From Antedon mediterranea (taxonomy: Eukaryota; Animalia; Echinodermata), in NCBI RefSeq assembly GCF_964355755.1, contig NC_092676.1:21904871-21968870 (forward strand): 64,000 bases of DNA. The letters are read 5' to 3'. The translations under genes were made by a program, and so were the position numbers. Positions 27,601-53,200 of the stretch are shown here, in pieces (the stretch's first letter is position 1; each line of letters starts with the position of its first letter). The notes under the pieces were generated by a model. The model saw nothing but the letters and a program-made list of their open reading frames with translations, was not told the origin of the DNA and did no database searches.

Positions 27601-30600
27601 ACTTATACTGTACTATGTTAGTTCAGGAGATGAAGTGTGTGTGGGCAGAAACTAGTGTGTTGGAGGTTGGTGGTGTGAGGTGTATAGTTGTCACTTTAAG
27701 ACCTAAATTAGATGTTTTCTGAAGAAAAGAAGTAAGCGGATACGCTTTCAAACAACTCCAAGAAGATTCACACAAAAATAATTACTTTCCAATAAAATAG
27801 TATAACAGTGTATATTACAGTACATTGAATAAACTCGAGCGGAATAATAACGCACATAAAAAACATTCATTTTCTTGTCGAAAAGTGCCCTCTCTAGTTT
27901 TCTATTAATTTATTAATAATTATTTTTCAATTAATGAGTAATATAAACATATTTTTAAAATTTAATGCTGGAAACTGTATCTACTCCTAACAAAGTTTCA
28001 TATCTCCAAATTTCATCAACGTATTCAAAGCACTTAAATAAATTACATTTAACATTACAAATTCAGGTTTTGGATATAATTTTGCTTAAAAACATATACA
28101 AAAAACATCGATAAAAAATACTTTTCGTATTCAAAAACATTTGATACTTGGTATAAATGTTCAATATAGGTTGCTCCATCCATATTGCAAACAAAAAATA
28201 ACTATCAAGCCATATCACTGATTTTTTAAATTTACGTTTTTACAAAATGTACACTTATGAAAGACCATACAATTCCAACTCATTTTTTTCAAGCTAATAA
28301 CTATTTTGAAAAAACGACCAACAAAAAACGTTCATGAATGCAATTTTTTTTTCTGTGAATAGAGCAACCTATAGTGAACATTTATACCAAGTATCAAATG
28401 TTTTTGAATACGAAAAGTATTTTTTATCGATGTTTTTTGTATATGTTTTTAAGCAAAATTCTATCCAAAACCCGAATTTTTATGTTAAATGTGATATTTA
28501 ATATTGAAGTGCTTTGAATACGTTGATGAAATTTGGAGATATGAAACTTTGTTAGGAGTAGAACCAGCTTCCAGCATTGAATATTAAAAATATGTTCATA
28601 TTACTCATTAATTAATAATAATTATTAATAAATTAATAGAAAACTAGAGAGGGCACTTTTCGAAAAGAATATGAATGTTTTTTTATGTGCGTTATTATTC
28701 CGCTCGAGTTTATTCAATGTACTGTAATATACACTGTTATACTACTTAATTGGAAAGTAATTATTTTTGTGTGAATCTTCTTGGAGTTGTTTGAAAGCGT
28801 ATCCGCTTACTTCTTTTCTTCAGAAAACATCTAATTTAGGTCTTAAAGTGACAACTATACACCTCACACCACCAACCTCCAACACACTAGTTTCTGCCCA
28901 CACACACACTTTATCTCCTGAACTAACATAGTACAGTATAACTCAAATTAATTGTTCTAATTTTTTTTTATTGCTGCCTCAAAGAATATTATATAATAGT
29001 AACAATATCAGAAAGGTAGATAGGTATTGTAATCATATTTAAATTTAAAAATGTTTAAAAAAATATGAATATATGTTTATACATACATTATAAATGAAAT
29101 ATATTAACTACTATTTTAGTAATGCATACACAAGTACAGAATATCAGAAATCAATGAATCATGTGTCTAAATGTGGCATTATTAGGCTAATTTGCTTTGA
29201 GAAAAACATTGATGCCATTGGCCTATACAAAAAATCAAGGCAATTAGACAAAATATTTACATAAACAATTAATACTAATATTGGTAGGCATAAAATAATA
29301 GTGTATATAAACTTTCCTTAAATAGTAACAGTATAGGGCCTTACCAATTTACTTAATACATAATATATGAACTATATTACACAAAAGAAATATAAATGAA
29401 TTTATAAGGACATGATGATTATCAAAAATAGTCAATATAATTAAATTTTAAACTCATTACCGGCATTATAAATAATAATTTAAAAAGATGAGAATGCAAG
29501 TAAATATCAGATTCATAGTCCTCATTATACACAATGATTTTCTACTATCAACAATCATGTAGCCTTTAATGAGTTTACATGGAGGTCTATTCAAATAAAT
29601 TTAAATAAAAGGGTTCGTGGAAATTGAAGTTAGGATTCCATCATTTCAACAACAAAAATATTCAAAATATCCTGCCAGTTTGCGTTCAAGACCTGCAACC
29701 TGCTTAGTTTTTAATACGAGTACTGCTTTCTATACACATAACTTTGATTTCTGCAAAAAAAAAAAAACTCTGTAATAATGTACTTTAATTACTGTAATAA
29801 TCTAGGTATAGATTATGTTGACCGGGCCAGTGAGAGGGCGATCGACTGTACTACCATAAGTCCTCTAGGTGTATACAACTTATTTCTTGTCTACAAAGTG
29901 TATAGTAGTATGCTAATAGTACTATTATTAGATTAGGTAGTTGGGAGTAGTTTTGAATCAGTAGTATGACTTCTTAAGAAGTAATTTAAAAATTATCATT
30001 GTATGATCAAAAAGAAATATTATAATATCTAACTTTCTCCATTATATAAATATATTATTTTATCCAAGGGATTGCAAACACGAATGTTCACATGTCTTGT
30101 TAAGTATTGCACCTTTGTCCTGTCTTTGTGTTGTCTGTAATGTCACTGCACTAACGGGTGACCGGTAAACGAGCTTCGCTCTTACGGTTATCCATCCATA
30201 TAAGTTGTTCATCTCTTATGTTCAGAAATTTAAATGGTAAATAAACTGAAACTGAAACTGTGCTTATGTGGTACAGGTTGACGAGACAGGAATGATGGTA
30301 GTGCCAGTATACCGTGTAGTTTAGCCTCAAGGCAATACAATGTAGCTGGAGTAGCTTGGACAAATACAGTAGAGATTTATGAGACTTGGTGTGTGATGAT
30401 TCAGTATGATAAATTTGTGCTGTGAAAGACAAAATTGTAGAATTAGGAAGAAAATATTGTAAAATATAACAAGGAAATTATACTATAGTATAATTAAGGG
30501 GTAACCGTATAATACATAATTAATAGTAATAAAGGCAATGGCAATTACTTATATTATGTATACATTACAATATTACAAATAAATTATATATTATTTTATT

Positions 30601-31659
30601 ATAAGGAAATCTGTTTTAGAATGAGAAAAAGCCGTCCCAACCCAGATTTGAACCCAGCTATCAATAAAGCTATAATTAAACAAAATAGACCATATTGTAG
30701 CCGGACTGGGTAGCGTAGACTTACTTGAGGCCTAGGCATAGTACGATTAGCTAGAAGGATACAGGTCAACCCGTACCCATGCCATGCCAACACGCTCGTA
30801 CCCAAATTTTGGTTTACATATATCCAAAATTTTGGCTTACTCGTACCCATCATGGGCTGCCTAGTAGTAGTAGTAGTAGCCTAGCCTAGCCTAAGGCAGC
30901 AGGCCCGGCCCTAGCCTACTACAACTTAAGTCTAGGCCTAGCCTAGTACTAGTAGGCCTCTAGGCCTAGCCTAGGCCCTACCTAGTAGTAGTTAACATGG
31001 GAATCCGTTAACATCATACATACGCCCAGAGCCTAGTAGTAGCTACCTACTACTCACTAGCTAGGCCTAGGTAGTAGCAGTAGTAGTTATTGTAGTAGTA
31101 TTATTGTATTGTAGTATTAGTTGTAGCTGTCCGGTGATCCTTGGTCCTTGTCTAGATCCCCTAGTTGGTCTAGGCTAGGCCTAGTACGTAGTTATTCTTC
31201 AACAGTCACACAATTCCGATTCTGCCGGCCACTGATTGCTAGTGAACAGGGGGAGGGAGAGAAAGAGTTAGAAGAACTGAAATAAGCCGTGACGTATAAT
31301 AAACATCATACAAAATAATAGTATAACTAACGAATCCGTATAATATAATAATGTTGTATGTTATAAAGTAAAGTAAATGCGTTTAATATAATACAATTAT
31401 ATTATAATATAATGTATTTTATTAATAATATAATATTAAATGTTCATAATATAATGCTAAAACCAAATAATATAATACAAAACGTCAATAATTTGTTACA
31501 TTTTTCACATAATATATTAGAAATAGATATAATATAATGCTAAAACCAAGTAATATAATCCAAAACGTATAATTCATTACAATACAATATATAATATAAT
31601 AAAAAAATGATATAATAATATAATATTTTGAATACTTCAGACAGCTGAGGCTTGCCATA
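24688..31659 (+). mobile_element. Giant foldback element E1 (6972 bp), non-autonomous, IS3EU-like
   Basis: Ends TATGGCAAGCCTCAGCTGTCTGAAG / CTTCAGACAGCTGAGGCTTGCCATA; TSD CTCCTT at 24682-24687 and 31660-31665; arms of ~3.3-3.5 kb around a ~185-bp spacer at ~28176-28360. Confidence 0.92.
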
Positions 31660-32313
31660 CTCCTTCGTATTAAGATAAATACGGTTTTTCTTATTGGTTT
31701 TACAATTTATTCAAATGTTTGTTTGATTTTCATTCTACTTTGTTATTGTCCATTTATATGTTTTATAGTATATTATTTATTATCTTAATACTAAATAAGT
31801 ACCGTACGGTACTGGATTACACTTAACTTCAATGTCAAGTTTCCGAGTTATTTAATTTAAAATCAAAATAACTAATAGTCCGTGAACAAAGGTGAAATAA
31901 ACTGTTGTCATGTCACATCTTTGTTTTGTTTCGTTGGATAGAAATTCTGAATCTATTTTATTTTTAGTAGTTTACATTTCTGTTTTTCGTAAAAAGGTAT
32001 CATTTGCATGGCGTTCAAAATCATTTGCATTTTTGTCAAAGCGGGTACCACACAATATATAGCCATCTGTGCACAATGCCAATGTTAATTGGCATGCCTT
32101 TCCCTTTGAACCTCAGATGAAGTGCAGCAGCAAACAGAATGTTTTCATTTGATATTATCATACAGTGAAAAGATCTTAAGAATAAAAAAAAAAAAATAAG
32201 ATCAATTAGTTTTCCTCAAATAAAGTTTACACGAAATAAAAAAAAGTCAGTGTCCTACTGCTGCCTTTACTACCTTTACAAACTACCAATCGATATTGTA
32301 GAGAAACGAATTC

Positions 32314-35300
32314 TATGGCAAGCCTCAGCTGTCTGAAGTATTCAAAATATTATATTATTATATCATTTTTTTATTATATTATATATTGTATTGTAATGAA
32401 TTATACGTTTTGGATTATATTACTTGGTTTTAGCATTATATTATATCTATTTCTAATATATTATGTGAAAAATGTAACAAATTATTGACGTTTTGTATTA
32501 TATTATTTGGTTTTAGCATTATATTATGAACATTTAATATTATATTATTAATAAAATACATTATATTATAATATAATTGTATTATATTAAACGCATTTAC
32601 TTTACTTTATAACATACAACATTATTATATTATACGGATTCGTTAGTTATACTATTATTTTGTATGATGTTTATTATACGTCACGGCTTATTTCAGTTCT
32701 TCTAACTCTTTCTCTCCCTCCCCCTGTTCACTAGCAATCAGTGGCCGGCAGAATCGGAATTGTGTGACTGTTGAAGAATAACTACGTACTAGGCCTAGCC
32801 TAGACCAACTAGGGGATCTAGACAAGGACCAAGGATCACCGGACAGCTACAACTAATACTACAATACAATAATACTACTACAATAACTACTACTGCTACT
32901 ACCTAGGCCTAGCTAGTGAGTAGTAGGTAGCTACTACTAGGCTCTGGGCGTATGTATGATGTTAACGGATTCCCATGTTAACTACGGGAATCCTTAACTA
33001 CTACTAGGTAGGGCCTAGGCTAGGCCTAGAGGCCTACTAGTACTAGGCTAGGCCTAGACTTAAGTTGTAGTAGGCTAGGGCCGGGCCTGCTGCCTTAGGC
33101 TAGGCTAGGCTACTACTACTACTACTAGGCAGCCCATGATGGGTACGAGTAAGCCAAAATTTTGGATATATGTAAACCAAAATTTGGGTACGAGCGTGTT
33201 GGCATGGCATGGGTACGGGTTGACCTGTATCCTTCTAGCTAATCGTACTATGCCTAGGCCTCAAGTAAGTCTACGCTACCCAGTCCGGCTACAATATGGT
33301 CTATTTTGTTTTATAGCTTTATTGATAGCTGGGTTCAAATCTGGGTTGGGACGGCTTTCTCTCATTCTAAAACAGATTTCCTTATAATAAAATAATATAT
33401 AATTTATTTGTAATATTGTAATGTATACATAATATAAGTAATTGCCATTGCCTTTATTACTATTAATTATGTATTATACGGTTACCCCTTAATTATACTA
33501 TAGTATAATTTCCTTGTTATATTTTACAATATTTTCTTCCTAATTCTACAATTTTGTCTTTCACAGCACAAATTTATCATATTGAATCATCACACACCAA
33601 GTCTCATAAATCTCTACTGTATTTGTCCAAGCTACTCCAGCTACATGGTATTGCCTTGAGGCTAAACTACACGGTATACTGGCACTACCATCATTCCTGG
33701 CTCGTCAACCTGTACCACATAAGCACAGTTTCAGTTTCAGTTTATTTACCATTTAAATTTCTGAACATAAGAGATGAACAACTTATATGGATGGATAACC
33801 GTAAGAGCGAAGCTCGTTTACCGGTCACCCGTTAGTGCAGTGACATTACAGACAACACAAAGACAGGACAAAGGTGCAATACTTAACAAGACATGTGAAC
33901 ATTCGTGTTTGCAACCCCTTGGATAAAATAATATATTTATATAATGGAGAAAGTTAGATATTATAATATTTCTTTTTGATCATACAATGATAATTTTTAA
34001 ATTACTTCTTAAGAAGTCATACTACTGATTCAAAATAGTGACTTACACCCTGTGGTCAAGGCTTTCTTTTCTCTTATGCTTATTTCCTCCAACATACAGA
34101 GTACATAGGACTTTTTTTATTCATAACTGTTGAATTGTTTCCCAATACATAGTACCTATTGGTATTATATCTAAAAATACAAAGGCGGCTAACACAGATA
34201 GTTCCATATATACAGTACTCTTTTATAAATAAATGTATCTCTCCAAACTACTCCCAACTACCTAATCTAATAATAGTACTATTAGCATACTACTATACAC
34301 TTTGTAGACAAGAAATAAGTTGTATACACCTAGAGGACTTATGGTAGTACAGTCGATCGCCCTCTCACTGGCCCGGTCAACATAATCTATACCTAGATTA
34401 TTACAGTAATTAAAGTACATTATTACAGAGTTTTTTTTTTTTGCAGAAATCAAAGTTATGTGTATAGAAAGCAGTACTCGTATTAAAAACTAAGCAGGTT
34501 GCAGGTCTTGAACGCAAACTGGCAGGATATTTTGAATATTTTTTGTTGTTGAAATGATGGAATCCTAACTTCAATTTCCACGAACCCTTTTATTTAAATT
34601 TATTTGAATAGACCTCCATGTAAACTCATTAAAGGCTACATGATTGTTGATAGTAGAAAATCATTGTGTATAATGAGGACTATGAATCTGATATTTACTT
34701 GCATTCCCATCTTTTTAAATTATTATTTATAATGCCGGTAATGAGTTTAAAATTTAATTATATTGACTATTTTTGATAATCATCATGTCCTTATAAATTC
34801 ATTTATATTTCTTTTGTGTAATATAGTTCATATATTATGTATTAAGTAAATTGGTAGGGCCCTATACTGTTACTATTTAAGGAAAGTTTATATACACTAT
34901 TATTTTATGCCTACCAATATTAGTATTAATTGTTTATGTAAATATTTTGTCTAATTGCCTTGATTTTTTGTATAGGCCAATGGCATCAATGTTTTTCTCA
35001 AAGCAAATTAGCCTAATAATGCCACATTTAGACACATGATTCATTGATTTCTGATATTCTGTACTTGTGTATGCATTACTAAAATAGTAGTTAATATATT
35101 TCATTTATAATGTATGTATAAACATATATTCATATTTTTTTTAACATTTTTAAATTTAAAAATTATTACAATACCTATCTACCTTTCTGATATTGTTACT
35201 ATTATATAATATTCTTTGAGGCAGCAATAAAAAAAAAATTAGAACAATTAATTTGATTTATACTGTACTATGTTAGTTCAGGAGATGAAGTGTGTGTGGG

Positions 35301-38300
35301 CAGAAACTAGTGTGTTGGAGGTTGGTGGTGTGAGGTGTATAGTTGTCACTTTAAGACCTAAATTAGATGTTTTCTGAAGAAAAGAAGTAAGCGCATACGC
35401 TTTCAAACAACTCCAAGAAGATTCACACAAAAATAATTACTTTCCAATAAAGTAGTATAACAGTGTATATTACAGTACATTGAATAAACTCGAGCGGAAT
35501 AATAACGCACATAAAAAAACATTCATTTTCTTTTCGAAAAGTGCCCTCTCTAGTTTTCCAATAATTTATTAATAATTATTATTAATTAATGAGTAATATG
35601 AACATATTTTTAACATTCAATGCTGGAAGCTGGTTCTACTCCTAACAAAGTTTCATATCTCCAAATTTCATCAACGTATTCAAAGCACTTCAATATTAAA
35701 TATCACATTTGACATAAAAATTCGGGTTTTGGATAGAATTTTGCTTAAAAACATATACAAAAAACATCGATAAAAAATACTTTTCGTATTCAAAAACACT
35801 TGATACTTGGTATAAATGTTCACTATAGGTTGCTCTATTCACAGAAAAAAATTGCATTCATGAACGTTTTTTGTTGATTGTTTTTTCAAAATAGTTATTA
35901 GCTTGAAAAAAATGAGTTGGAATTGTATGGTCTTTCATAAGTGTACATTTTGTAAAAACGTAAATTTAAAAAATCAGTGATATGGCTTGATAGTTATTTT
36001 TTGTTTGCAATATGGATGGAGCAACCTATATTGAACATTTATACCAAGTATCAAATGTTTTTGAATACGAAAAGTATTTTTTATCGATGTTTTTGTATAT
36101 GTTTTTAAGCAAAATTATATCCAAAACCTGAATTTGTAATGTTAAATGTAATTTATTTAAGTGGTTTGAATACGTTGATGAAATTTGGAGATATGAAACT
36201 TTGTTAGGAGTAGATACAGTTTCCAGCATTAAATTTTAAAAATATGTTTATATTACTCATTAATTGATAATAATTATTAATAAATTAATAGAAAACTAGA
36301 GAGGGCACTTTTCGACAAGAAAATGAATGTTTTTTATGTGCGTTATTATTCCGCTCGAGTTTATTCAATGTACTGTAATATACACTGTTATACTATTTTA
36401 TTGGAAAGTAATTATTTTTGTGTGAATCTTCTTGGAGTTGTTTGAAAGCGTATCCGCTTACTTCTTTTCTTCAGAAAACATCTAATTTAGGTCTTAAAGT
36501 GACAACTATACACCTCACACCACCAACCTCCAACACACTAGTTTCTGCCCACACACACTTCATCTCCTGAACTAACATAGTACAGTATAAATCAAATTAA
36601 TTGTTCTAATTTTTTTTTTATTGCTGCCTCAAAGAATATTATATAATAGTAACAATATCAGAAAGGTAGATAGGTATTGTAATAATTTTTAAATTTAAAA
36701 ATGTTAAAAAAAATATGAATATATGTTTATACATACATTATAAATGAAATATATTAACTACTATTTTAGTAATGCATACACAAGTACAGAATATCAAAAA
36801 TCAATGAATCATGTGTCTAAATTTGGCATTATTAGGCTAATTTGCTTTGAGAAAAACATTGATGCCATTGGCCTATACAAAAATCAAGGCAATTAGACAA
36901 AATATTTACATAAACAATTAATACTAATATTGGTAGGAATAAAATAATAGTGTATATAAACTTTCCTTAAATAATAACGGTATAGGGCCTTACCAATTTA
37001 TTTAATACATAAAATATGAACTATATTACACAAAAAAAGTATAAATGAATTTATAAGGACATGATGATTATCAAAAATAGTCAATATAATTAAATTTTAA
37101 ACTCATTACCGGCATTATAAATAATATTTTAAAAAGATAAGAATGCAAGTAAATATCAGATTCATAGTCCTCATTATACACAATTATTTCCTACTATCAC
37201 ATATTAAACTAGAAAACAATCATGTAGCCTTTAATGACTTTACATGGAGGTCTATTCAAATAAATTTAAATAAAAGGGTCACAATATGTCTTCGTCTCCA
37301 GTTCGTGGAAATTGAAGTTAGGATTCCATCATTTCAACAACAAAAAATATTCAAAATATCCTGCCAGTTTGCATTCAAGACCTGCAACCTGCTTAGTTTT
37401 TAATACGAGTACTGCTTTCTATACACATAACTTTGATTTCTGAAAAAAAAAAAAAAAACTCTGTAATCATGTACTTTAATTACTGTAATAATCTAGGTAT
37501 AGATTATGTTGACCGGGCCAGTGAGAGGGCGATCGACTGTACTACCATAAGTCCTGTAGGTGTATACAACTTATTTCTTGTCTACAAAGTGTATAGTAGT
37601 ATGCTAATAGTACTATTATTAGATTAGGTAGTTGGGAGTAGTTTGGAGAGATACATCTATCTATAAAAGAGTACTGTATATATGGAACTATCTGTGTTAG
37701 CCGCCTTTGTATTTTTAGATATAATACCAATAGGTACTATGTATTGGGAAACAATTCAACAGTTATGAATAAAAAAAGTCCTATGTACTCTGTATGTTGG
37801 AGGAAATAAGCATAAGAGCAAATAAAGCCTTGACCACAGGGTGTAAGTCACTATTTTGAATCAGTAGTATGACTTCTTAAGAAGTAATTTAAAAATTATC
37901 ATTGTATGATCAAAAAGAAATATTATAATATCTAACTTTCTTCTTTATATAAATATATTATTTTATCCAAGGGGTTGCAAACACAAGTGTTCACATGCCT
38001 TGTTAAGTATTGCACCTTTGTCCTGTCTTTATGTTGTCTGTAATGTCACTGCACTAACGGGTGACCGGTAAACGAGCTTCGCTCTTACGGTTATCCATCC
38101 ATATAAGTTGTTCATCTCTTATGTTCAGAAATTGAAATGGTAAATAAACTGAAACTGAAACTGTGCTTATGTGGTACAGGTTGACGAGCCAGGAATGATG
38201 GTAGTGCCAGTATACCGTGTAGTTTAGCCTCAAGGCAATACCATGTAGCTGGAGTAGCTTGGACAAATACAGTAGAGATTTATGAGACTTGGTGTGTGAT

Positions 38301-39554
38301 GATTCAGTATGATAAATTTGTGCTGTGAAAGACAAAATTGTAGAATTAGGAAGAAAATATTGTAAAATATAACAAGGAAATTATACTATAGTATAATTAA
38401 GGGGTAACCGTATAATATATAATTAATAGTAATAAAGACAATGGCAATTACTTATATTATGTATACATTACAATATTACAAATAAATTCATATATTATTT
38501 TATTATGATAAGGAAATCTGTTTTAGAATGAGAAAAAGCCGTCCCAACCCAGATTTGAACCCAGCTATCAATAAAGCTATAAAACAAAATAGACCATATT
38601 GTAGCCGGACTGGGTAGCGTAGACTTACTTGAGGCCTAGGCATAGTACGATTAGCTAGAAGGATACAGGTCAACCCGTACCCATGCATGCCATGCCAACA
38701 CGCTCGTACCCAAATTTTGGTTTACATATATCCAAAATTTTGGCTTACTCGTACCCATCATGGGCTGCCTAGTAGTAGTAGTAGTAGTAGCCTAGCCTAA
38801 GGCAGCAGGCCCGGCCCTAGCCTACTACAACTTAAGTCTAGGCCTAGCCTAGTACTAGTAGGCCTCTAGGTCTAGCCTAGGCCCTAGTAGTTAACATCAT
38901 ACATACGCCCTAGAGCCTAGTAGTAGCTACCTACTACTCACTAGCTAGGCCTAGGTATTAGTTGTAGTAGTAGTTATTGTAGTAGTATTATTGTATTGTA
39001 GTATTAGTTGTAGCTGTCCGGTGATCCTTGGTCACTTGTCTAGATCCCCTAGTAGGCCAACCCCTAGGCTAGGCCTAGTACGTAGTTATTCTTCAACAGT
39101 CACACAATTCAGATTCTGCCGGCCGCTGATTGCTAAGTGAACAGGGGGAGGGAGAGAAAGAGTTAGAAGAACTGAAATAAGCCGTGACGTATAATAAACA
39201 TCATACAAAATAATAATATAACTAACGAATCCGTATAATATAATAATGTTGTATGTTATAAAGTAAAGTAAATGCGTTTAATATAATACAATTATATTAT
39301 AATATAATGTATTTTATTAATAATATAATATTAAATGTTCATAATATAATGCTAAAACCAAATAATATAATACAAAAAGTCAATAATTTGTTACATTTTT
39401 TACATAATATATTAGAAATATATATAATATAATGCTAAAACCAAGTAATATAATGCAAAACGTATAATTCATTACAATACAATATATAATATAATAAAAA
39501 AATGATATAATAATATAATATTTTGAATACTTCAGACAGCTGAGGCTTGCCATA
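32314..39554 (-). mobile_element. Giant foldback element E2 (7241 bp), left half of the composite
   Basis: Same termini; spacer (~35837-36017) inverted relative to E1; left flank GAATTC, right flank GGTAAC, so no TSD of its own. Confidence 0.92.
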
Positions 39555-39765
39555 GGTAACCGCTGAAAGATACCTCGTTTTGTGCATTCAACACGACCAC
39601 AAGGAACGTGAAGCAAACACTTGCTGCGAGTACGAGTTGGAATATTCAACTTAAACAAAGCAACAAGTGGACAATCATAAACGGAATTGAATGAGTTGTA
39701 TAAAAAAACCATATCAAAAACAACTCTACGATTTTCAAGAGAAATAAGAGAAACATGTTATTATC
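39555..39765 (-). mobile_element. 211-bp CR1/Jockey-group LINE ORF2 3' fragment between E2 and E3
   Basis: Minus-strand SLENRRVVFDMVFLYNSFNSVYDCPLVALFKLNIPTRTRSKCLLHVPCGRVECTKRGIFQRLP aligns by eye with the LINE peptide at ~6740-6930. Confidence 0.78.
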
Positions 39766-42700
39766 TATGGCAAGCCTCAGCTGTCTGAAGTATTCAAAAT
39801 ATTATATTATTATATCATTTTTTTATTATGTTATATATTGTATTGTAATGAATTATACGTTTTGCATTATATTACTTGGTTTTAGCATTATATTATATCT
39901 ATTTCTAATATATTATGTGAAAAATGTAACAAATTATTGACTTTTTGTATTATATTTTTTGGTTTTAGCATTATATTATGAACATTTAATATTATATTAT
40001 TAATAAAATACATTATATTATAATATAATTGTATTATATTAAACGCATTTACTTTACTTTATAACATACAACATTATTATATTATACGGATTCGTTAGTT
40101 ATATTATTATTTTGTATGATGTTTATTATACGTCACGGCTTATTTCAGTTCTTCTAACTCTTTCTCTCCCTCCCCCTGTTCACTAGCAATCAGCGGCCGG
40201 CAGAATCTGAATTGTGTGACTGTTGAAGAATAACTACGTACTAGGCCTAGGCCTAGCCTAGGCCTACTAGGGGATCTAGACAAGTGACCAAGGATCACCG
40301 GACAGCTACAACTAATACTACAATACAATAATACTACTACAATAACTACTACTGCTACTACCTAGGCCTAGCTAGTGAGTAGGGGATAGGTAGCTACTAT
40401 GGCTATGTATGATGTTAACTACAAGGGCCTAGGCTAGGCCTAAGGCCCTAGAGGCCTACTAGTACTAGGCTAGGCCTAGACTTAAGTTGTAGTAGCCTAG
40501 GGCCGGGCCTGCTGCCTTAGGCTAGGCTACTACTACTACTACTACTACTAGGCAGCCCATGATGGGTACGAGTAAGCCAACATTTTGGATATATGTAAAC
40601 CAAAATTTGGGTACGAGCGTGTTGGCATGGCATGGGTACGGGTTGACCTGTATCCTTCTAGCTAATCGTACTATGCCTAGGCCTCAAGTAAGTCTACGCT
40701 ACCCAGTCCGGCTACAATATGGTCTATTTTGTTTTATAGCTTTACTGATAGCTGGGTTCAAATCTGGGTTGGGACGGCTTTTTCTCATTCTAAAACAGAT
40801 TTCCTTATCATAATAAAATAATATATGAATTTATTTGTAATATTGTAATGTATACATAATATAAGTAATTGCCATTGTCTTTATTACTAATAATTATATA
40901 TTATACGGTTACCCCTTAATTATACTATAGTATAATTTCCTTGTTATATTTTACAATATTTTCTTCCTAATTCTACAATTTTGTCTTTCACAGCACAAAT
41001 TTATCATACTGAATCATCACACACCAAGTCTCATAAATCTCTACTGTATTTGTCCAAGCTACTCCAGCTACATGGTATTGCCTTGAGGCTAAACTACACG
41101 GTATACTGGCACTACCATCATTCCTGGCTCGTCAACCTGTACCACATAAGCACAGTTTCAGTTTCAGTTTATTTACCATTTCAATTTCTGAACATAAGAG
41201 ATGAACAACTTATATGGATGGATAACCGTAAGAGCGAAGCTCGTTTACCGGTCATCCGTTAGTGCAGTGACATTACAGACAACATAAAGACAGGACAAAG
41301 GTGCAATACTTAACAAGGCATGTGAACACTTGTGTTTGCAACCCCTTGGATAAAATAATATATTTATATAAAGAAGAAAGTTAGATATTATAATATTTCT
41401 TTTTGATCATACAATGATAATTTTTAAATTACTTCTTAAGAAGTCATACTACTGATTCAAAATAGTGACTTACACCCTGTGGTCAAGGCTTTATTTGCTC
41501 TTATGCTTATTTCCTCCAACATACAGAGTACATAGGACTTTTTTTATTCATAACTGTTGAATTGTTTCCCAATACATAGTACCTATTGGTATTATATCTA
41601 AAAATACAAAGGCGGCTAACACAGATAGTTCCATATATACAGTACTCTTTTATAGATAGATGTATCTCTCCAAACTACTCCCAACTACCTAATCTAATAA
41701 TAGTACTATTAGCATACTACTATACACTTTGTAGACAAGAAATAAGTTGTATACACCTACAGGACTTATGGTAGTACAGTCGATCGCCCTCTCACTGGCC
41801 CGGTCAACATAATCTATACCTAGATTATTACAGTAATTAAAGTACATTATTACAGAGTTTTTTTTTTTTGCAGAAATCAAAGTTATGTGTATAGAAAGCA
41901 GTACTCGTATTAAAAACTAAGCAGGTTGCAGGTCTTGAACGCAAACTGGCAGGATATTTTGAATATTTTTTGTTGTTGAAATGATGGAATCCTAACTTCA
42001 ATTTCCACGAACTGGAGACGAAGACATATTGTGACCCTTTTATTTAAATTTATTTGAATAGACCTCCATGTAAAGTCATTAAAGGCTACATGATTGTTTT
42101 CTAGTTTAATATGTGATTAGGAAATAATTGTGTATAATGAGGACTATGAATCTGATATTTACTTGCATTCTTATCTTTTTAAAATATTATTTATAATGCC
42201 GGTAATGAGTTTAAAATTTAATTATATTGACTATTTTTGATAATCATCATGTCCTTATAAATTCATTTATACTTTTTTTGTGTAATATAGTTCATATTTT
42301 ATGTATTAAATAAATTGGTAAGGCCCTATACCGTTATTATTTAAGGAAAGTTTATATACACTATTATTTTATTCCTACCAATATTAGTATTAATTGTTTA
42401 TGTAAATATTTTGTCTAATTGCCTTGATTTTTGTATAGGCCAATGGCATCAATGTTTTTCTCAAAGCAAATTAGCCTAATAATGCCAAATTTAGACACAT
42501 GATTCATTGATTTCTGATATTCTGTACTTGTGTATGCATTACTAAAATAGTAGTTAATATATTTCATTTATAATGTATGTATAAACATATATTCATATTT
42601 TTTTTAACATTTTTAAATTTAAAAATTATTACAATACCTATCTACCTTTCTGATATTGTTACTATTATATATTTTTTGAGGCAGCAATAAAAAAAAATTA

Positions 42701-45700
42701 AAAAATGTATTTGACTTATACTGTACTATGTTAGTTCAGAAGATGAAGTGTGTGTGGGCAGAAACTAGTGTGTTGGAGGTTGGTGGTGTGAGGTGTATAG
42801 TTGTCACTTTAAGACCTAAATTAGATGTTTTCTGAAGAAAAGAAGTAAGCGGATACGCTTTCAAACAACTCCAAGAAGATTCACACAAAAATAATTACTT
42901 TCCAATAAAATAGTATAACAGTGTATATTACAGTACATTGAATAAACTCGAGCGGAATAATAACGCACATAAAAAACATTCATTTTCTTGTCGAAAAGTG
43001 CCCTCTCTAGTTTTCTATTAATTTATTAATAATTATTATCAATTAATGAGTAATATAAACATATTTTTAAAATTTAATGCTGGAAACTGTATCTACTCCT
43101 AACAAAGTTTCATATCTCCAAATTTCATCAACGTATTCAAACCACTTAAATAAATTACATTTAACATTACAAATTCAGGTTTTGGATATAATTTTGCTTA
43201 AAAACATATACAAAAACATCGATAAAAAATACTTTTCGTATTCAAAAACATTTGATACTTGGTATAAATGTTCAATATAGGTTGCTCCATCCATATTGCA
43301 AACAAAAAATAACTATCAAGCCATATCACTGATTTTTTAAATTTACGTTTTTACAAAATGTACACTTATGAAAGACCATACAATTCCAACTCATTTTTTT
43401 CAAGCTAATAACTATTTTGAAAAAACAATCAACAAAAAACGTTCATGAATGCAATTTTTTTCTGTGAATAGAGCAACCTATAGTGAACATTTATACCAAG
43501 TATCAAGTGTTTTTGAATACGAAAAGTATTTTTTATCGATGTTTTTTGTATATGTTTTTAAGCAAAATTCTATCCAAAACCCGAATTTTTATGTTAAATG
43601 TGATATTTAATATTGAAGTGCTTTGAATACGTTGATGAAATTTGGAGATATGAAACTTTGTTAGGAGTAGAACCAGCTTCCAGCATTGAATGTTAAAAAT
43701 ATGTTCATATTACTCATTAATTAATAATAATTATTAATAAATTATTGGAAAACTAGAGAGGGCACTTTTCGAAAAGAAAATGAATGTTTTTTTATGTGCG
43801 TTATTATTCCGCTCAAGTTTATTCAATGTACTGTAATATACACTGTTATACTACTTTATTGGAAAGTAATTATTTTTGTGTGAATCTTCTTGGAGTTGTT
43901 TGAAAGCGTATGCGCTTACTTCTTTTCTTCAGAAAACATCTAATTTAGGTCTTAAAGTGACAACTATACACCTCACACCACCAACCTCCAACACACTAGT
44001 TTCTGCCCACACACACTTCATCTTCTGAACTAACATAGTACAGTATAAATCAAATTAATTGTTCTAATTTTTTTTTTATTGCTGCCTCAAAGAATATTAT
44101 ATAATAGTAACAATATCAGAAAGGTAGATAGGTATTGTAATAATTTTTAAATTTAAAAATGTTAAAAAAAATATGAATATATGTTTATACATACATTATA
44201 AATGAAATATATTAACTACTATTTTAGTAATGCATACACAAGTACAGAATATCAGAAATCAATGAATCATGTGTCTAAATGTGGCATTATTAGGCTAATT
44301 TGCTTTGAGAAAAACATTGATGCCATTGGCCTATACAAAAAATCAAGGCAATTAGACAAAATATTTACATAAACAATTAATACTAATATTGGTAGGCATA
44401 AAATAATAGTGTATATAAACTTTCCTTAAATAGTAACAGTATAGGGCCCTACCAATTTACTTAATACATAATATATGAACTATATTACACAAAAGAAATA
44501 TAAATGAATTTATAAGGACATGATGATTATCAAAAATAGTCAATATAATTAAATTTTAAACTCATTACCGGCATTATAAATAATAATTTAAAAAGATGGG
44601 AATGCAAGTAAATATCAGATTCATAGTCCTCATTATACACAATGATTTTCTACTATCAACAATCATGTAGCCTTTAATGAGTTTACATGGAGGTCTATTC
44701 AAATAAATTTAAATAAAAGGGTTCGTGGAAATTGAAGTTAGGATTCCATCATTTCAACAACAAAAAATATTCAAAATATCCTGCCAGTTTGCGTTCAAGA
44801 CCTGCAACCTGCTTAGTTTTTAATACGAGTACTGCTTTCTATACACATAACTTTGATTTCTGCAAAAAAAAAAAACTCTGTAATAATGTACTTTAATTAC
44901 TGTAATAATCTAGGTATAGATTATGTTGACCGGGCCAGTGAGAGGGCGATCGACTGTACTACCATAAGTCCTCTAGGTGTATACAACTTATTTCTTGTCT
45001 ACAAAGTGTATAGTAGTATGCTAATAGTACTATTATTAGATTAGGTAGTTGGGAGTAGTTTGGAGAGATACATTTATTTATAAAAGAGTACTGTATATAT
45101 GGAACTATCTGTGTTAGCCGCCTTTGTATTTTTAGATATAATACCAATAGGTACTATGTATTGGGAAACAATTCAACAGTTATGAATAAAAAAAGTCCTA
45201 TGTACTCTGTATGTTGGAGGAAATAAGCATAAGAGAAAAGAAAGCCTTGACCACAGGGTGTAAGTCACTATTTTGAATCAGTAGTATGACTTCTTAAGAA
45301 GTAATTTAAAAATTATCATTGTATGATCAAAAAGAAATATTATAATATCTAACTTTCTCCATTATATAAATATATTATTTTATCCAAGGGGTTGCAAACA
45401 CGAATGTTCACATGTCTTGTTAAGTATTGCACCTTTGTCCTGTCTTTGTGTTGTCTGTAATGTCACTGCACTAACGGGTGACCGGTAAACGAGCTTCGCT
45501 CTTACGGTTATCCATCCATATAAGTTGTTCATCTCTTATGTTCAGAAATTTAAATGGTAAATAAACTGAAACTGAAACTGTGCTTATGTGGTACAGGTTG
45601 ACGAGCCAGGAATGATGGTAGTGCCAGTATACCGTGTAGTTTAGCCTCAAGGCAATACCATGTAGCTGGAGTAGCTTGGACAAATACAGTAGAGATTTAT

Positions 45701-46976
45701 GAGACTTGGTGTGTGATGATTCAATATGATAAATTTGTGCTGTGAAAGACAAAATTGTAGAATTAGGAAGAAAATATTGTAAAATATAACAAGGAAATTA
45801 TACTATAGTATAATTAAGGGGTAACCGTATAATACATAATTAATAGTAATAAAGGCAATGGCAATTACTTATATTATGTATACATTACAATATTACAAAT
45901 AAATTATATATTATTTTATTATAAGGAAATCTGTTTTAGAATGAGAGAAAGCCGTCCCAACCCAGATTTGAACCCAGCTATCAATAAAGCTATAAAACAA
46001 AATAGACCATATTGTAGCCGGACTGGGTAGCGTAGACTTACTTGAGGCCTAGGCATAGTACGATTAGCTAGAAGGATACAGGTCAACCCGTACCCATGCC
46101 ATGCCAACACGCTCGTACCCAAATTTTGGTTTACATATATCCAAAATTTTGGCTTACTCGTACCCATCATGGGCTGCCTAGTAGTAGTAGTAGTAGCCTA
46201 GCCTAGCCTAAGGCAGCAGGCCCGGCCCTAGCCTACTACAACTTAAGTCTAGGCCTAGCCTAGTACTAGTAGGCCTCTAGGCCTAGCCTAGGCCCTACCT
46301 AGTAGTAGTTAACATGGGAATCCGTTAACATCATACATACGCCCAGAGCCTAGTAGTAGCTACCTACTACTCACTAGCTAGGCCTAGGTAGTAGCAGTAG
46401 TAGTTATTGTAGTAGTATTATTGTATTGTAGTATTAGTTGTAGCTGTCCGGTGATCCTTGGTCCTTGTCTAGATCCCCTAGTTGGTCTAGGCTAGGCCTA
46501 GTACGTAGTTATTCTTCAACAGTCACACAATTCCGATTCTGCCGGCCACTGATTGCTAGTGAACAGGGGGAGGGAGAGAAAGAGTTAGAAGAACTGAAAT
46601 AAGCCGTGACGTATAATAAACATCATACAAAATAATAGTATAACTAACGAATCCGTATAATATAATAATGTTGTATGTTATAAAGTAAAGTAAATGCGTT
46701 TAATATAATACAATTATATTATAATATAATGTATTTTATTAATAATATAATATTAAATGTTCATAATATAATGCTAAAACCAAATAATATAATACAAAAC
46801 GTCAATAATTTGTTACATTTTTCACATAATATATTAGAAATAGATATAATATAATGCTAAAACCAAGTAATATAATCCAAAACGTATAATTCATTACAAT
46901 ACAATATATAATATAATAAAAAAATGATATAATAATATAATATTTTGAATACTTCAGACAGCTGAGGCTTGCCATA
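39766..46976 (+). mobile_element. Giant foldback element E3 (7211 bp), right half of the composite
   Basis: Same termini; left flank ATTATC; right flank GAATTC (46977-46982) matches the left flank of E2 (32308-32313). Confidence 0.92.
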
Positions 46977-47243
46977 GAATTCGGTGTTTTTAACGTCTAA
47001 AGGTTCCCTTTGATTTTTACGTATGGTTTGTGATTATCGCAATATAAATCCTAACTATACATTGTTATTATTAAAAGTCACATAGAATAATTAATCAAAC
47101 TATACTTGTTTGTGGTAACTTAACTTTAAGAACTTATCGGAAATAAGGGAAACAAAATCCGCTTTCCAGCAATAATATTCAAATTAGTTTGAGAAAAACG
47201 AAATCTTTTAACTACAGACACTTTATAAATATATACCGTATGT

Positions 47244-50200
47244 TATGGCAAGCCTCAGCTGTCTGAAGTATTCAAAATATTATATTATTATATCATTTTC
47301 TTATTATATTATATATTGTATTGTAATGAATTATACGTTTTGCATTATATTACTTGGTTTTAGCATTATATTATATCTACAGTATTTCTAATATATTATG
47401 TGAAAAATGTAACAAATTATTGACTTTTTGTATTATATTATTTGGTTTTAGCATTATATTATGAACATTTAATATTATATTATTAATAAAATACATTATA
47501 TTATAATATAATTGTATTATATTAAACGCATTTACTTTACTTTATAACATACAACATTATTATATTATACGGATTCGTTAGTTATATTATTATTTTGTAT
47601 GATGTTTATTATACGTCACGGCTTATTTCAGTTCTTCTAACTCTTTCTCTCCCTCCCCCTGTTCACTAGCAATCAGCGGCCGGCAGAATCTGAATTGTGT
47701 GACTGTTGAAGAATAACTACGTACTAGGCCTAGCCTAGGATCACCGGACAGCTACAACTAATACTACAATACAATAATACTACTACAATAACTACTACTG
47801 CTACTACCTAGGCCTAGCTAGAGTGAGTAGTAGGTAGCTACTACTAGGCTCTAGGGCGTATGTATGATGTTAACTACTAGGGCCTAGGCTAGGCCTAGAG
47901 GCCTACTAGTACTAGGCTAGGCCTAGACTTAAGTTGTAGTAGGCTAGGGCCGGGCCTGCTGCCTTAGGTTAGGCTACTACTACTACTACTACTAGGCAGC
48001 CCATGATGGGTACGAGTAAGCCAAAATTTTGGATATATGTAAACCAAAATTTGGGTACGAGCGTGTTGGCATGGCATGGGTACGGGTTGACCTGTATCCT
48101 TCTAGCTAATCGTACTATGCCTAGGACTCAAGTAAGTCTACGCTACCCAGTCCGGCTACAATATGGTCTATTTTGTTTTATAGCTTTATTGATAGCTGGG
48201 TTCAAATCTGGGTTGGGACGGTTTTTTCTCATTCTAAAATAGATTTCCTTATCATAATAAAATAATATATGAATTTATTTGTAATATTGTAATGTATACA
48301 TAATAAAGTAATTGCCATTGCCTTTATTAGTAATTACTATTAATTATGTATTATACGGTTACCCCTTAATTATACTATAGTATAATTTCCTTGTTATATT
48401 TTACAATATTTCCTTCCTAATTCTACAATTTTGTCTTTCACAGCACAAATTTATCATACTGAATCATCACACACCAAGTCTCATAAATCTCTACTGTATT
48501 TGTCCAAGCTACTCCAGCTACATGGTATTGCCTTGAGGCTAAACTACACGGTATACTGGCACTACCATCATTCCTGGCTCGTCAACCTGTACCACATAAG
48601 CACAGTTTCAGTTTGAGTTTATTTACCATTTCAATTTCTGAACATAAGAGATGAACAACTTATATGGATGGATAACCGTAAGAGCGAAGCTCGTTTACCG
48701 GTCACCCGTTAGTGCAGTGACATTACAGACAACATAAAGACAGGACAAAGGTGCAATACATAACAGGACATGTGAACACTTGTGTTTGCAACCCTTTGGA
48801 TAAAATAATATATTTATATAATGGAGAAAGTTAGATATTATAATATTTCTTTTTGATCATACAATGATAATTTTTAAATTACTTCTTAAGAAGTCATACT
48901 ACTGATTCAAAATAGTGACTTACACCCTGTGGTCAACGCTTTCTTTGCTCTTATGCTTATTTCCTCCAACATACAGAGTACATAGGACTTTTTTTATTCA
49001 TAACTGTTGAATTGTTTCCCAATACATAGTACCTATGGGTATTATATCTAAAAATACAAAGGCGGCTAACACAGATAGTTCCATATATACAGTACTCTTT
49101 TATAAATAAATGTATCTCTCCAAACTACTCCCAACTACCTAATCTAATAATAGTACTATTAGCATACTACTATACACTTTGTAGACAAGAAATAAGTTGT
49201 ATACACTAGAGGACTTATGGTAGTACAGTCGATCGCCCTCTCACTGGCCCGGTCAACATAATCTATACCTAGATTATTACAGTAATTAAAGTACATTATT
49301 ACAGAGTTTTTTTTTTTTTTTGCAGAAATCAAAGTTATGTGTATAGAAAGCAGTACTCGTATTAAAAACTAAGCAGGTTGCAGGTCTTGAACGCAAACTG
49401 GCAGGATATTTTGAATATTTTTGTTGTTGAAATGATGGAATCCTAACTTCAATTTCCACGAACCCTTTTATTTAAATTTATTTGAATAGACCTCCATGTA
49501 AACTCATTAAAGGCTACATGATTGTTTTATATTTTAATATGTGATAGTAGAAAATCATTGTGTATAATGAGGACTGTGAATCTGATATTTACTTGCATTC
49601 TCATCTTTTTAAATTATTATTTATAATGCCGGTAATGAGTTTAAAATTTAATTATTGACTATTTTTGATAATCATCATGTCCTTATAAATTCATTTATAT
49701 TTCTTTTGTGTAATATAGTTCATATATTATGTATTAAGTAAATTGGTAAGGCCCTATACTGTTACTATTTAAGGAAAGTTTATATACACTATTATTTTAT
49801 GCCTACCAATATTAGTATTTATTGTTTATGTAAATATTTTGTCTAATTGCCTTGATTTTTTGTATTGGCCAATGGCATCAATGTTTTTCTCAAAGCAAAT
49901 TAGCCTAATAATGCCACATTTAGACACATGATTCATTGATTTCTTATATTCTGTACTTGTGTATGCATTACTAAAATAGTAGTTAATATATTTCATTTAT
50001 AATGTATGTATAAACATATATTCATATTTTTTTAAACATTTTTAAATTTAAAAATTATTACAATACCTATCTACCTTTCTGATATTGTTACTATTATATA
50101 ATATTCTTTGAGGCAGCAATAAAAAAAAAATTAGAACAATTAATTTGAGTTATACTGTACTATGTTAGTTCAGGAGATGAAGTGTGTGTGGGCAGAAACT

Positions 50201-53200
50201 AGTGTGTTGGAGGTTGGTGGTGTGAGGTGTATAGTTGTCACTTTAAGACCTAAATTAGATGTTTTCTGAAGAAAAGAAGTAAGCGCATACGCTTTCAAAC
50301 AACTCCAAGAAGATTCACACAAAAATAATTACTTTCCAATAAAGTAGTATAACAGTGTATATTACAGTACATTGAATAAACTCGAGCGGAATAATAACGC
50401 ACATAAAAAAACATTCATTTTCTTTTCGAAAAGTGCCCTCTCTAGTTTTCTATTAATTTATTAATAATTATTATTAATTAATGAGTAATATGAACATATT
50501 TTTAAAATTCAATGCTGGAAGCTGGTTCTACTCCTAACAAAGTTTCATATCTCCAAATTTCATCAACGTATTCAAAGCACTTCAATATTAAATATCACAT
50601 TTAACATAAAAATTCGGGTTTTGGATAGAATTTTGCTTAAAAACATATACAAAAAACATCGATAAAAAATACTTTTCGTATTCAAAAACATTTGATACTT
50701 GGTACAAATGTTCACTATAGGTTGCTCTATTCACAGAAAAAAATTGCATTCAAGAACGTTTTTTGTTGGTCGTTTTTTCAAAATAGTTATTAGCTTGTAA
50801 AAAATGAGTTGGAATTGTATGGTCTTTCATAAGTGTACATTTTGTAAAAACGTAAATTTAAAAAATCAGTGATATGGCTTGATAGTTATTTTTTGTTTGC
50901 AATATGGATGGAGCAACCTATATTGAACATTTATACCAAATATCAAATGTTTTTGAATACGAAAAGTATTTTTTATCGATGTTTTTTGTATATGTTTTTA
51001 AGCAAAATTATATCCAAAACCTGAATTTGTAATGTTAAATGTAATTTATTTAAGTGCTTTGAATACGTTGATGAAATTTGGAGATATGAAACTTTGTTAG
51101 GAGTAGATACAGTTTCCAGCATTAAATTTTAAAAATATGTTTATTTTACTCATTAATTGATAATAATTATTAATAAATTAATAGAAAACTAGAGAGGGCA
51201 CTTTTCGACAAGAAAATGAATGTTTTTTATTTGCGTTATTATTCCGCTCGAGTTTATTCAATGTACTGTAATATACACTGTTACACTATTTTATTGGAAA
51301 GTAATTATTTTGGTGTGAATCTTCTTGGAGTTGTTTGAAAGCGTATCCGCTTACTTCTTTTCTTCAGAAAACATCTAATTTAGGTCTTAAAGTGACAACT
51401 ATACACCTCACACTAGTTTCTGCCCACACACACTTCATCTCCTGAACTAACATAGTACAGTATAAGTCAAATAAATTTTTTAATTTTTTTTTATTGCTGC
51501 CTCAAAAAATATTATATAATAGTAACAATATCAGAAAGGTAGATAGGTATTGTAATAATTTTTAAATTTAAAAATGTTAAAAAAAAATATGAATATATGT
51601 TTATACATACATTATAAATGAAATATATTAACTACTATTTTAGTAATGCATACACAAGTACAGAATATCAGAAATCAATGAATCATGTGTCTAAATGTGG
51701 CATTATTAGGCTAATTTGCTTTGAGAAAAACATTGATACCATTGGCCTATACAAAAATCAAGGGAATTAGACAAAATATTTACATAAACAATTAATACTA
51801 ATATTGGTAGGCATAAAATAATAGTGTATATAAACTTTCCTTAAATAATAACAGTATAGGGCCTTACCAATTTATTTAATACATAATATATGAACTATAT
51901 TACACAAAAAAAGTATAAATGAATTTATAAGGACATGATGATTATCAAAAATAGTCAATATAATTAACTTTTAAACTCATTACCGGCATTATAAATAATA
52001 TTTAAAAAAGATAAGAATGCAAGTAAATATCAGATTCATAGTCCTCATTATACACAATGATTTCCTACTATCACATATTAAAATATAAAACAATCATGTA
52101 GCCTTTAATGACTTTACATGGAGGTCTATTCAAATAAATTTAAATAAAAGGGTCATAATATGTCTTCGTCTCCAGTTCGTGGAAATTGAAGTTAGGATTC
52201 CATCATTTCAACAACAAAAAATATTCAAAATATCCTGCCAGTTTGCATTCAAGACCTGCAACCTGCTTAGTTTTTAATACGAGTACTGCTTTCTATACAC
52301 ATAACTTTGATTTCTGCAACAAAAAAAAACTCTGTAATAATGTACTTTAATTACTGTAATAATCTAGGTATAGATTATGTTGACCGGGCCAGTGAGAGGG
52401 CGATCGACTGTACTACCATAAGTCCTGTAGGTGTATACAACTTATTTCTTGTCTACAAAGTGTATAGTAGTATGCTAATAGTACTATTATTAGATTAGGT
52501 AGTTGGGAGCAGTTTGGAGAGATACATCTATCTATAAAAGAGTACTGTATATATGGAACTATCTGTGTTAGCCACCTTTGTATTTTTAGATATAATACCA
52601 ATAGGTACTATGTATTGGGAAACAATTCAACAGTTATGAATAAAAAAAGTCCTATGTACTCTGTATGTTGGAGGAAATAAGCATAAGAGCAAATAAAGCC
52701 TTGACCACAGGGTGTAAGTCACTATTTTGAATCAGTAGTATGACTTCTTAAGAAGTAATTTAAAAATTATCATTGTTTGATCAAAAAGAAATATTATAAT
52801 ATCTAACTTTCTCCTTTATATAAATATATTATTTTATCCAAGGGGTTGCAAACACAAGTGTTCACATGTCCTGTTATGTATTGCACCTTTGTCCTGTCTT
52901 TATGTTGTCTGTAATGTCACTGTACTAACGGGTGACCGGTAAACGAGCTTCGCTCTTACGGTTATCCATCCATATAAGTTGTTCATCTCTTATGTTCAGA
53001 AATTGAAATGGTAAATAAACTCAAACTGAAACTGTGCTTATGTGGTACAGGTTGACGAGCCAGGAATGATGGTAGTGCCAGTATACCGTGTAGTTTAGCC
53101 TCAAGGCAATACCATGTAGCTGGAGTAGCTTGGACAAATACAGTAGAGATTTATGAGACTTGGTGTGTGATGATTCAGTATGATAAATTTGTGCTGTGAA

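What the first reader, a model, noticed from the sequence alone, without database searches (positions are those of the whole stretch)
32308..46982. 14.7-kb composite transposon: a palindrome of two palindromes carrying captured cargo
Seen: E2 and E3 lack their own TSDs (inner flanks GGTAAC and ATTATC), but the outer flanks are both GAATTC. E3 is an inverted near-copy of E2, sharing variants such as IYHIESS and GRLSLIL in the outer arms and SNHLNK in the inner arms. Between them sit 211 bp of LINE ORF2 cut at both ends and unrelated to the host element. Inference: the two elements moved together using their outermost ends and carried foreign DNA, like a bacterial IS-flanked composite transposon, which is rarely documented in animals. 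Caveat: GAATTC is itself palindromic, so an inverted duplication could mimic the TSD, although inverted identity stops after 7 bp.
Basis: partly seen in the sequence, partly recalled or inferred. Interest (0 to 1): 0.85.

Follow-up and report, generated by a model that had tools for sequence, protein, structure and literature searches.

The report
Double transposon palindrome with retrotransposon filler
Two 7-kb mirror-symmetric DNA transposons sit head to head around a 211-base scrap of a retrotransposon inside one 6-base target duplication; they likely inserted one after the other into the same six bases and were patched at the centre by DNA repair, although a joint jump as a composite transposon is nearly as likely.

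Summary
The structure is real. E2 (32314-39554) and E3 (39766-46976) are inverted sister copies of a 7.2-kb non-coding palindromic element with TA..TA ends and 6-bp target duplications (IS3EU/GingerRoot-like). GAATTC flanks the pair. Contigs from 4 of 4 runs (one sample) show the host repeat running from 32313 straight to 46983, so the duplication is genuine. The 211-bp spacer is about 202 bp of young LINE ORF2 plus 9 non-LINE bases.

A shared outer duplication does not prove a joint jump: two insertions into the same six bases give the same flanks. The junctions lean that way. The hexamer is a palindrome (2% by chance), its first base and last two bases survive at the inner junctions, and the LINE joins through a TAG microhomology. 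One contig in one run shows an end-6 bp-end junction elsewhere. Best reading (0.5): double insertion made a perfect 14.5-kb palindrome whose centre broke and was filled with LINE DNA. Composite jump: 0.37. No genome was available to find a donor or second copy.

The parts
32308..32313 (.). Left copy of the 6-bp target duplication GAATTC (itself a palindrome)
   Evidence: single copy in empty host sites
32314..39554 (-). E2, 7241-bp non-coding palindromic element: outer arm B2 32314-35834, 185-bp non-palindromic centre 35835-36019, inner arm A2 36020-39554
39555..39756 (-). Fragment of a young, high-copy LINE, ORF2 C-terminal region, stop-free, lacking 5' part and 3' tail; its match extends 2 bp into E2's terminal TA
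39757..39765 (.). Nine non-LINE bases; the first three complete an 8-bp palindrome with the LINE end, seven match the element's own terminal region 41 bp in, and the last two equal the end of GAATTC
   Evidence: low-complexity, so chance matches are possible
39766..46976 (+). E3, 7211-bp inverted sister of E2: inner arm A3 39766-43286, centre 43287-43471, outer arm B3 43472-46976
46977..46982 (.). Right copy of the target duplication GAATTC
31660..32313 (.). Host: piece of a high-copy interspersed repeat between E1 and E2
   Evidence: depth in the hundreds to tens of thousands; loose ends continue into 24652-24681 and 46983-47012
46977..47243 (.). Host: continuation of the same repeat between E3 and E4
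24688..31659 (+). E1, single copy of the same family with its own TSD CTCCTT; 212-bp deletion in arm B
47244..55253 (-). E4, single copy of the same family with its own TSD GTATGT; carries a nested 864-bp element

Best explanation
The 14.7-kb unit is two sister copies of a 7-kb palindromic, non-coding DNA transposon lying head to head in one GAATTC target duplication, which likely arose in place when a second copy inserted into the duplicated six bases of the first, and whose centre was then likely broken and repaired with LINE DNA. Shown: the flanks, the single GAATTC in empty host copies, the sister relation, the LINE identity of the spacer and the junction letters. Inferred steps: (1) a transposase supplied in trans inserted one copy at GAATTC; (2) a second copy reused the TSD, giving GAATTC-E2-GAATTC-E3-GAATTC, a perfect 14.5-kb palindrome with no spacer; (3) the palindrome extruded and was cut at its tip, losing only AAT; (4) microhomology-mediated end joining copied about 200 bp of a young LINE, annealing through TAG on the left and adding 7 bases on the right, which created a stabilising spacer; (5) fill-in and fold-back templating left extra changes in the inner arms. 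On this reading it is a pseudo-composite that need never have moved as a unit, though its two outer ends are intact and could now do so.
For: The hexamer is a palindrome; 2.1% of hexamers outside the cluster are (715 of 33424), and the other 2 TSDs in the window are not. With GAATTC between the two ends the centre is perfectly symmetric over all 63 of 63 bases tested per side. The inner junctions keep 1 base of GAATTC on the left and 2 on the right. LINE copies read TA before the spacer's first base, so end plus remnant shares TAG with the LINE; background is 1.4% for TAG and 4.7% for TC. The LINE match stops 9 bases short of E3 in 4 of 4 runs; a composite donor would need E3 to sit that close to a LINE end by chance. 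One contig in run X2 joins an element end to an element start across 6 bases, so such dimers or circles may exist in this family. Three insertion sites lie within 909 bp of host (648 and 261 bp apart). Outer arms are identical over the first 2.9 kb while inner arms differ at 12 sites (p=0.0005); 8 of 20 inner-arm differences match the copy's own B arm. Precedent, passages read: double insertions with a TSD in the junction, including an inverted Rover pair around a palindromic 6-mer (PMC5932611); a perfect 15.4-kb mouse palindrome rearranged at its centre in about 35% of offspring (review PMC8701086); gap-filling with short microhomology in animal TIR elements (PMC8277862).
Against: The junction coincidences were picked after seeing the sequence, and a target preference for G first, C last or palindromic sites would shrink them. 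Filler capture is the rarer outcome: 93% of 118 rearrangements of the mouse palindrome were deletions, and spacer inclusion was called uncommon (PMC8701086, passages). Both inner termini are intact, whereas 24 of 36 hobo dimers had lost terminal sequence (PMC5932611). Private substitutions in A2 and A3 (4 and 6) are no higher than in A1 and B1 (5 and 5), so the arm asymmetry may equally be recent homogenisation of the outer arms, as expected if those ends act as a pair. The end-6 bp-end joint is one contig in 1 of 4 runs, with 23 letters on its short side, and was not listed again. No listed contig bridges either inner junction (32 of 393 pieces shown).
Confidence: 0.5

Rival explanations
1. 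True composite transposition. Two copies inserted about 205 bp apart and head to head at a donor LINE, with TSDs GGTAAC and ATTATC. The transposase later paired the two outer ends and moved 14.7 kb, including the LINE piece, to GAATTC.
For: One 6-bp TSD around the whole unit and a contiguous empty site. All four termini intact. Insertions a few hundred bases apart occur in this very window (648 and 261 bp), so a donor pair is easy to form. All ends are identical, so any two could be paired. Outer arms are nearly identical (3 substitutions), like the homogenised terminal arms of single copy E4 (1 substitution in the first bin against 6-7 in E1-E3).
Against: It leaves as coincidences the palindromic TSD (about 2%), the TAG overlap (about 1.4%), the TC at the right junction (about 5%) and E3 sitting 9 bases from the LINE's end. 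No donor or second copy was seen among the 24 of 87 loose ends shown, which is a weak test.
Confidence: 0.37
2. One element inserted at GAATTC and was later expanded in place by recombination or gap repair from another locus where an element end lies beside this LINE piece, with the far arm rebuilt from the near one.
For: The family is mosaic: arm tracts are shared across copies and between arms. A3 lacks three derived characters shared by A1 and A2.
Against: A resident single copy would leave one A-type outer arm, but both outer arms are B-type from arm position 100 on. A3's states at those sites equal its own B arm, so fold-back conversion explains them.
Confidence: 0.09
3. Assembly fold-back artefact, or an inverted duplication whose palindromic flank mimics a TSD.
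For: GAATTC is palindromic and inverted identity runs 7 bases into the flank. No listed contig bridges the inner junctions.
Against: Empty host copies join 32313 to 46983 exactly. E2 and E3 differ by 38 substitutions and several indels, which a read fold-back would not give. The spacer is unique and not symmetric.
Confidence: 0.04

Closest known systems
TE tandem dimers by double insertion (McGurk and Barbash 2018, PMC5932611, passages read)
   Same: Two copies at one target; inverted pairs occur, one around a palindromic 6-mer; outer flanks carry the same TSD.
   Different: Here the junction holds 211 bp of foreign DNA rather than a clean TSD, both termini are intact, and each monomer is itself a 7-kb palindrome.
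IS3EU/GingerRoot DNA transposons (PMC10045372, PMC6839031, passages read)
   Same: TA..TA termini and 6-bp TSDs; sizes up to about 13 kb are reported for GingerRoot.
   Different: No transposase is encoded; arms are 3.5 kb against TIRs of 100-150 bp in GingerRoot, and almost the whole element is inverted repeat.
Bacterial composite transposons; eukaryotic composite-like KolobokP (PMC9587614, passages read); maize Ac/Ds macrotransposons and Drosophila FB-flanked composites (both recalled, not read)
   Same: Two complete elements around foreign DNA inside one TSD.
   Different: No evidence here of movement as a unit or of a second copy; the cargo is a 0.2-kb LINE scrap with no function; KolobokP has direct repeats and its own enzymes.
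Pack-TIR gap filling (Tan et al. 2021, PMC8277862, passages read)
   Same: Foreign DNA captured in a TIR element context through short microhomology; mostly single copy and independent of transposition.
   Different: Capture lies between two whole elements, exactly at their ends, not inside one element.
Foldback-type elements such as Galileo (PMC3573991, passages read) and FB (recalled)
   Same: Long inverted arms, subterminal repeats, non-coding copies, sequence exchange among copies.
   Different: Galileo is P superfamily with 7-bp TSDs and arms up to about 1.3 kb; these have 6-bp TSDs, TA..TA ends and 3.5-kb arms.

Membership tests
Composite transposon | Two complete elements flanking unrelated DNA | tested here: met
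Composite transposon | One TSD outside the pair, none for each element, empty site contiguous | tested here: met
Composite transposon | Moved as a unit: donor locus or further copies with other TSDs | not testable with these tools
   No genome held; one search shows only 24 of 87 loose ends and none is a donor junction
Double-insertion dimer | Same TSD on both outer flanks | tested here: met
Double-insertion dimer | A third TSD copy in the junction | tested here: inconclusive
   Only 1 base on the left and 2 on the right match GAATTC; the rest is LINE plus 7 bases
Double-insertion dimer | Intermediate alleles (single element, or dimer without filler) | not testable with these tools
   All 4 runs found are one sample
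IS3EU/GingerRoot | TA..TA termini | tested here: met
   8 of 8 ends; definition from PMC10045372
IS3EU/GingerRoot | 6-bp TSD | tested here: met
   3 of 3 insertion sites; empty sites seen for 2 of 3
IS3EU/GingerRoot | IS3-like DDE transposase, in the element or in an autonomous partner with the same ends | not testable with these tools
   No ORF of 150 codons or more inside any element; no partner in the window; 0 matches to the terminus in metagenome contigs. Assignment rests on ends and TSD only.
LINE ORF2 (spacer) | Homology to APE plus RT ORF2 proteins | tested here: met
   P0023 has endonuclease and RVT_1, and the match lies at its residues 847-907 of 948. Clade (CR1/L2-like) is recalled from motifs, not tested.

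The most novel reading that the evidence does not exclude
An animal IS3EU-type family targets the six bases beside its own ends, as bacterial copy-out/paste-in elements do, making end-6 bp-end dimers. Those that are perfect palindromes break, gain a spacer of about 200 bp and become new, twice-as-large foldback elements that can jump by their outer ends. The 7-kb monomer (two 3.5-kb arms around 185 bp) would be the product of an earlier round, and this 14.7-kb unit the next round caught at birth.
Probability: 0.15. Interest if true: 0.78.

Novelty: new variant of a known kind. Interest (0 to 1): 0.5.

Why it matters
It shows that an element-cargo-element unit inside one TSD, the usual signature for calling a composite transposon, can also come from double insertion plus repair, and it gives a locus where the two can be told apart with one genome search. 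Either outcome is useful: a natural animal composite transposon, or a natural case of palindrome centre repair with LINE filler. [quoted passage not shown] The cargo has no evident function, and the event is single-copy as far as seen, which limits its weight.

Tried and rejected
No whole genome is held, so donor, copy number and autonomous partner could not be searched. A word-index protein search with the spacer peptide found 0 of 7 candidates at E<=0.001; the exhaustive search then found 27. The element terminus had 0 matches in metagenome contigs. The scan's earlier notes gave nothing relevant: 4 of 5 look-ups were empty and one returned an unrelated bacterial islet.

I considered that the LINE continues into the host at 32313, because an in-frame reading gave a LINE-like tripeptide. 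Rejected: real LINE copies continue with other letters and the profile finds no LINE in host pieces. Adjacent inversion by hybrid-end transposition was rejected, since it needs the reverse complement of an outer hexamer at an inner junction and neither inner hexamer is GAATTC. The idea that A3 came from a distant copy was weakened, as its odd sites match its own B arm.

Summed contig depth was not used as a copy number. The lack of listed contigs across the inner junctions is no evidence either way, because the tables are cut. The region 470-835 of the arm alignment (quasi-palindromic repeats, 23 of 43 A2/A3 differences) was dropped before the asymmetry count. A search for the Drosophila FB-NOF composite returned 0 papers, so that precedent is recalled only. 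No supplements were read.

Full report
Observation. The window holds four copies of one element with identical termini: E1 24688-31659, E2 32314-39554, E3 39766-46976, E4 47244-55253. E1 and E4 have their own 6-bp TSDs. E2 and E3 have GAATTC outside and GGTAAC and ATTATC inside, 211 bp apart. Each element is two inverted arms of about 3.5 kb (A and B, 1.9-2.8% substitutions plus indels) around a 185-187 bp non-palindromic centre. E2 and E3 are sisters: 19 sites group them, against 2 and 0 for the other groupings, and they differ by 0.53%. The window is animal DNA by its content (32% GC, LINE, exon-like frames); this is inference.

The TSD is real. No genome is held, but four runs of one sample hold the host (probably the assembled sample, so not independent). 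Laid on 31625-32350, contigs cover the host piece at high summed depth with many variants, so it is an interspersed repeat. Among the 24 of 68 loose ends shown, contigs leave the stretch at 32312-32313 in 4 of 4 runs. In X3 the 30 letters shown equal window 46983-47012 exactly, X2 shows the first 9, and X1 and X4 show variant copies. Loose ends before 31660 likewise continue into 24652-24681. Empty host copies therefore have one GAATTC; whether they are allelic or paralogous cannot be told. An inverted duplication that merely mimics a TSD is very unlikely.

The spacer. Its minus strand is a stop-free 66-residue frame that matches a LINE-like remnant at 6825-6941 (44%, E 2e-7) and 27 library proteins. 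Of 9 scanned, P0023 has endonuclease plus RVT_1 with the match near its C-terminus and P0006 has RVT_1. A profile of these finds only the spacer and 6662-6929 at significant scores, nothing in the host pieces. Contigs show a high-copy LINE family, some copies identical to the spacer over 57-73 bases. LINE copies continue past both ends: on the left the match begins at 39553, two bases inside E2's terminal TA; on the right it stops at 39756 in 4 of 4 runs, leaving 9 non-LINE bases. No listed piece bridges an inner junction, but only 32 of 393 pieces are shown.

Family. TA..TA ends with 6-bp TSDs are the stated marks of IS3EU/GingerRoot (PMC10045372; PMC6839031; passages). No transposase or autonomous partner was found, so membership rests on ends and TSD alone. 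Arms of 3.5 kb are far longer than GingerRoot's 100-150 bp TIRs. In the listings of three searches (30 of 62, 12 of 35 and 15 of 115 papers listed) I saw no description of such foldback IS3EU copies; Repbase itself was not searchable.

How it formed. One TSD around two elements has two simple sources: a joint jump, or two insertions into the same six bases. The second is documented, with the TSD left in the junction and an inverted pair around a palindromic 6-mer (PMC5932611, passages). Here a second insertion into E2's right GAATTC would give a centre that is perfectly symmetric (63 of 63 bases per side tested) between 99% identical 7-kb arms. Such palindromes break at the centre: a perfect 15.4-kb mouse transgene was rearranged there in about 35% of offspring (review PMC8701086, passages; primary papers not read). 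The observed junctions keep G on the left and TC on the right, a loss of just AAT at the would-be hairpin tip. The LINE shares TAG with end plus remnant. Backgrounds are 2.1% for a palindromic hexamer, 1.4% for TAG and 4.7% for TC. The 7 extra bases look templated: three complete a short palindrome with the LINE end, and a 7-mer matches the terminus 41 bp in, though this is low-complexity DNA. One X2 contig joins an element end to a start across 6 bases (depth 22, short side 23, 1 of 4 runs, not relisted). Spacers of 6-8 bp between ends are typical of bacterial copy-out/paste-in junctions (PMC7780238, passages). Three insertion sites lie within 909 bp of host.

Against this, the coincidences are post hoc and an unmeasured target preference would reduce them. 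Filler capture is rarer than deletion (93% of 118 events were deletions), and both inner termini are intact. A donor pair about 205 bp apart is easy to form given the local clustering, and identical ends make outer-end pairing plausible. My rough weighing, a judgement and not a computed result, gives 0.5 for in-place double insertion with repair, 0.37 for the composite jump, 0.09 for expansion of a single copy by recombination and 0.04 for an artefact or mimic.

Arm asymmetry. Outer arms differ by 3 substitutions in all, none in the first 2.9 kb; inner arms differ by 12 in the same span after masking a quasi-palindromic zone that holds 23 of 43 differences (p=0.0005). Of 20 unmasked inner-arm differences, 11 are new mutations, 8 match the copy's own B arm and 1 is shared by both arms of E3. 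This fits mutagenic repair around the centre, but private counts in A2 and A3 (4, 6) resemble A1 and B1 (5, 5), so recent homogenisation of the outer arms, as seen at the ends of E4, fits too and would favour the ends acting as a pair. It does not decide.

Comparison and novelty. Composite-like units are known in eukaryotes (KolobokP, PMC9587614, passages; maize macrotransposons and FB composites, recalled), as are dimers and gap-filling capture (PMC8277862, passages) and exchange among long-TIR copies (PMC3573991, passages). The combination here, foldback monomers of IS3EU type forming a palindrome of palindromes with a LINE spacer, is a new variant of known kinds. It is a real and testable case, single-copy as far as seen, with non-functional cargo. 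Interest 0.5.

Noticed in passing
run X2, joint 31661 to 32313: One contig joins an element's end to an element's start across 6 bases: a tandem dimer elsewhere in the genome or a circle junction. Weak (1 of 4 runs, short side 23 letters) but a lead on the IS3EU mechanism.
   Followed up: partly
24688-55253: Three insertion sites of the same family within 909 bp of one host repeat, turning under 1 kb into 30 kb of nested palindromes; suggests local hopping or a hot spot.
   Followed up: partly
47244-55253 (E4): The outer 1.6 kb of arm B has become A-type and several private changes are shared by both arms, i.e. arm-to-arm conversion within one element.
   Followed up: partly
53505-54368: An 864-bp element nested in E4, with about 70-bp inverted ends, TAG on both sides and many TTGCGCAA repeats.
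   Followed up: no
24059-24491 and 56181-56611: Inverted 430-bp repeat pair at 87% identity enclosing the whole cluster; either the host's terminal repeats or two copies of another repeat. No TSD identified.
   Followed up: partly
32349, run X4 loose end: A contig shares the first 36 bases of the terminus and then diverges for 255 bases or more: a related subfamily, possibly the autonomous partner.
   Followed up: no
first 320 bp of every arm, e.g. 39808-40085: Subterminal direct repeats of about 83-bp period at about 72% identity, candidate transposase binding sites.
   Followed up: no
32986-33001 (arm B2): A 16-bp insertion, the only difference between the outer arms in 2.9 kb; it looks like an inverted-template switch.
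   Followed up: no
4745-18991: Tandem array of at least four gene copies of about 3.5-kb period with cysteine-rich last exons (7706-8185, 11201-11695, 14300-15130, 18630-18989). No Pfam hit for the 3 scanned; resembles 'short-chain collagen C4-like' invertebrate proteins (recalled).
   Followed up: partly
6662-6929 (-): A frameshifted 3' remnant of a different LINE of the same general type as the spacer, inside the gene array.
   Followed up: yes
1890-2345 (-): Frame with a sulfotransferase-like motif (recalled); Pfam gave no significant hit.
   Followed up: partly
57110-60228: Tandem repeats of about 150-bp period (58041-58890) and longer duplicated units (57110-57654, 59237-60228).
   Followed up: no
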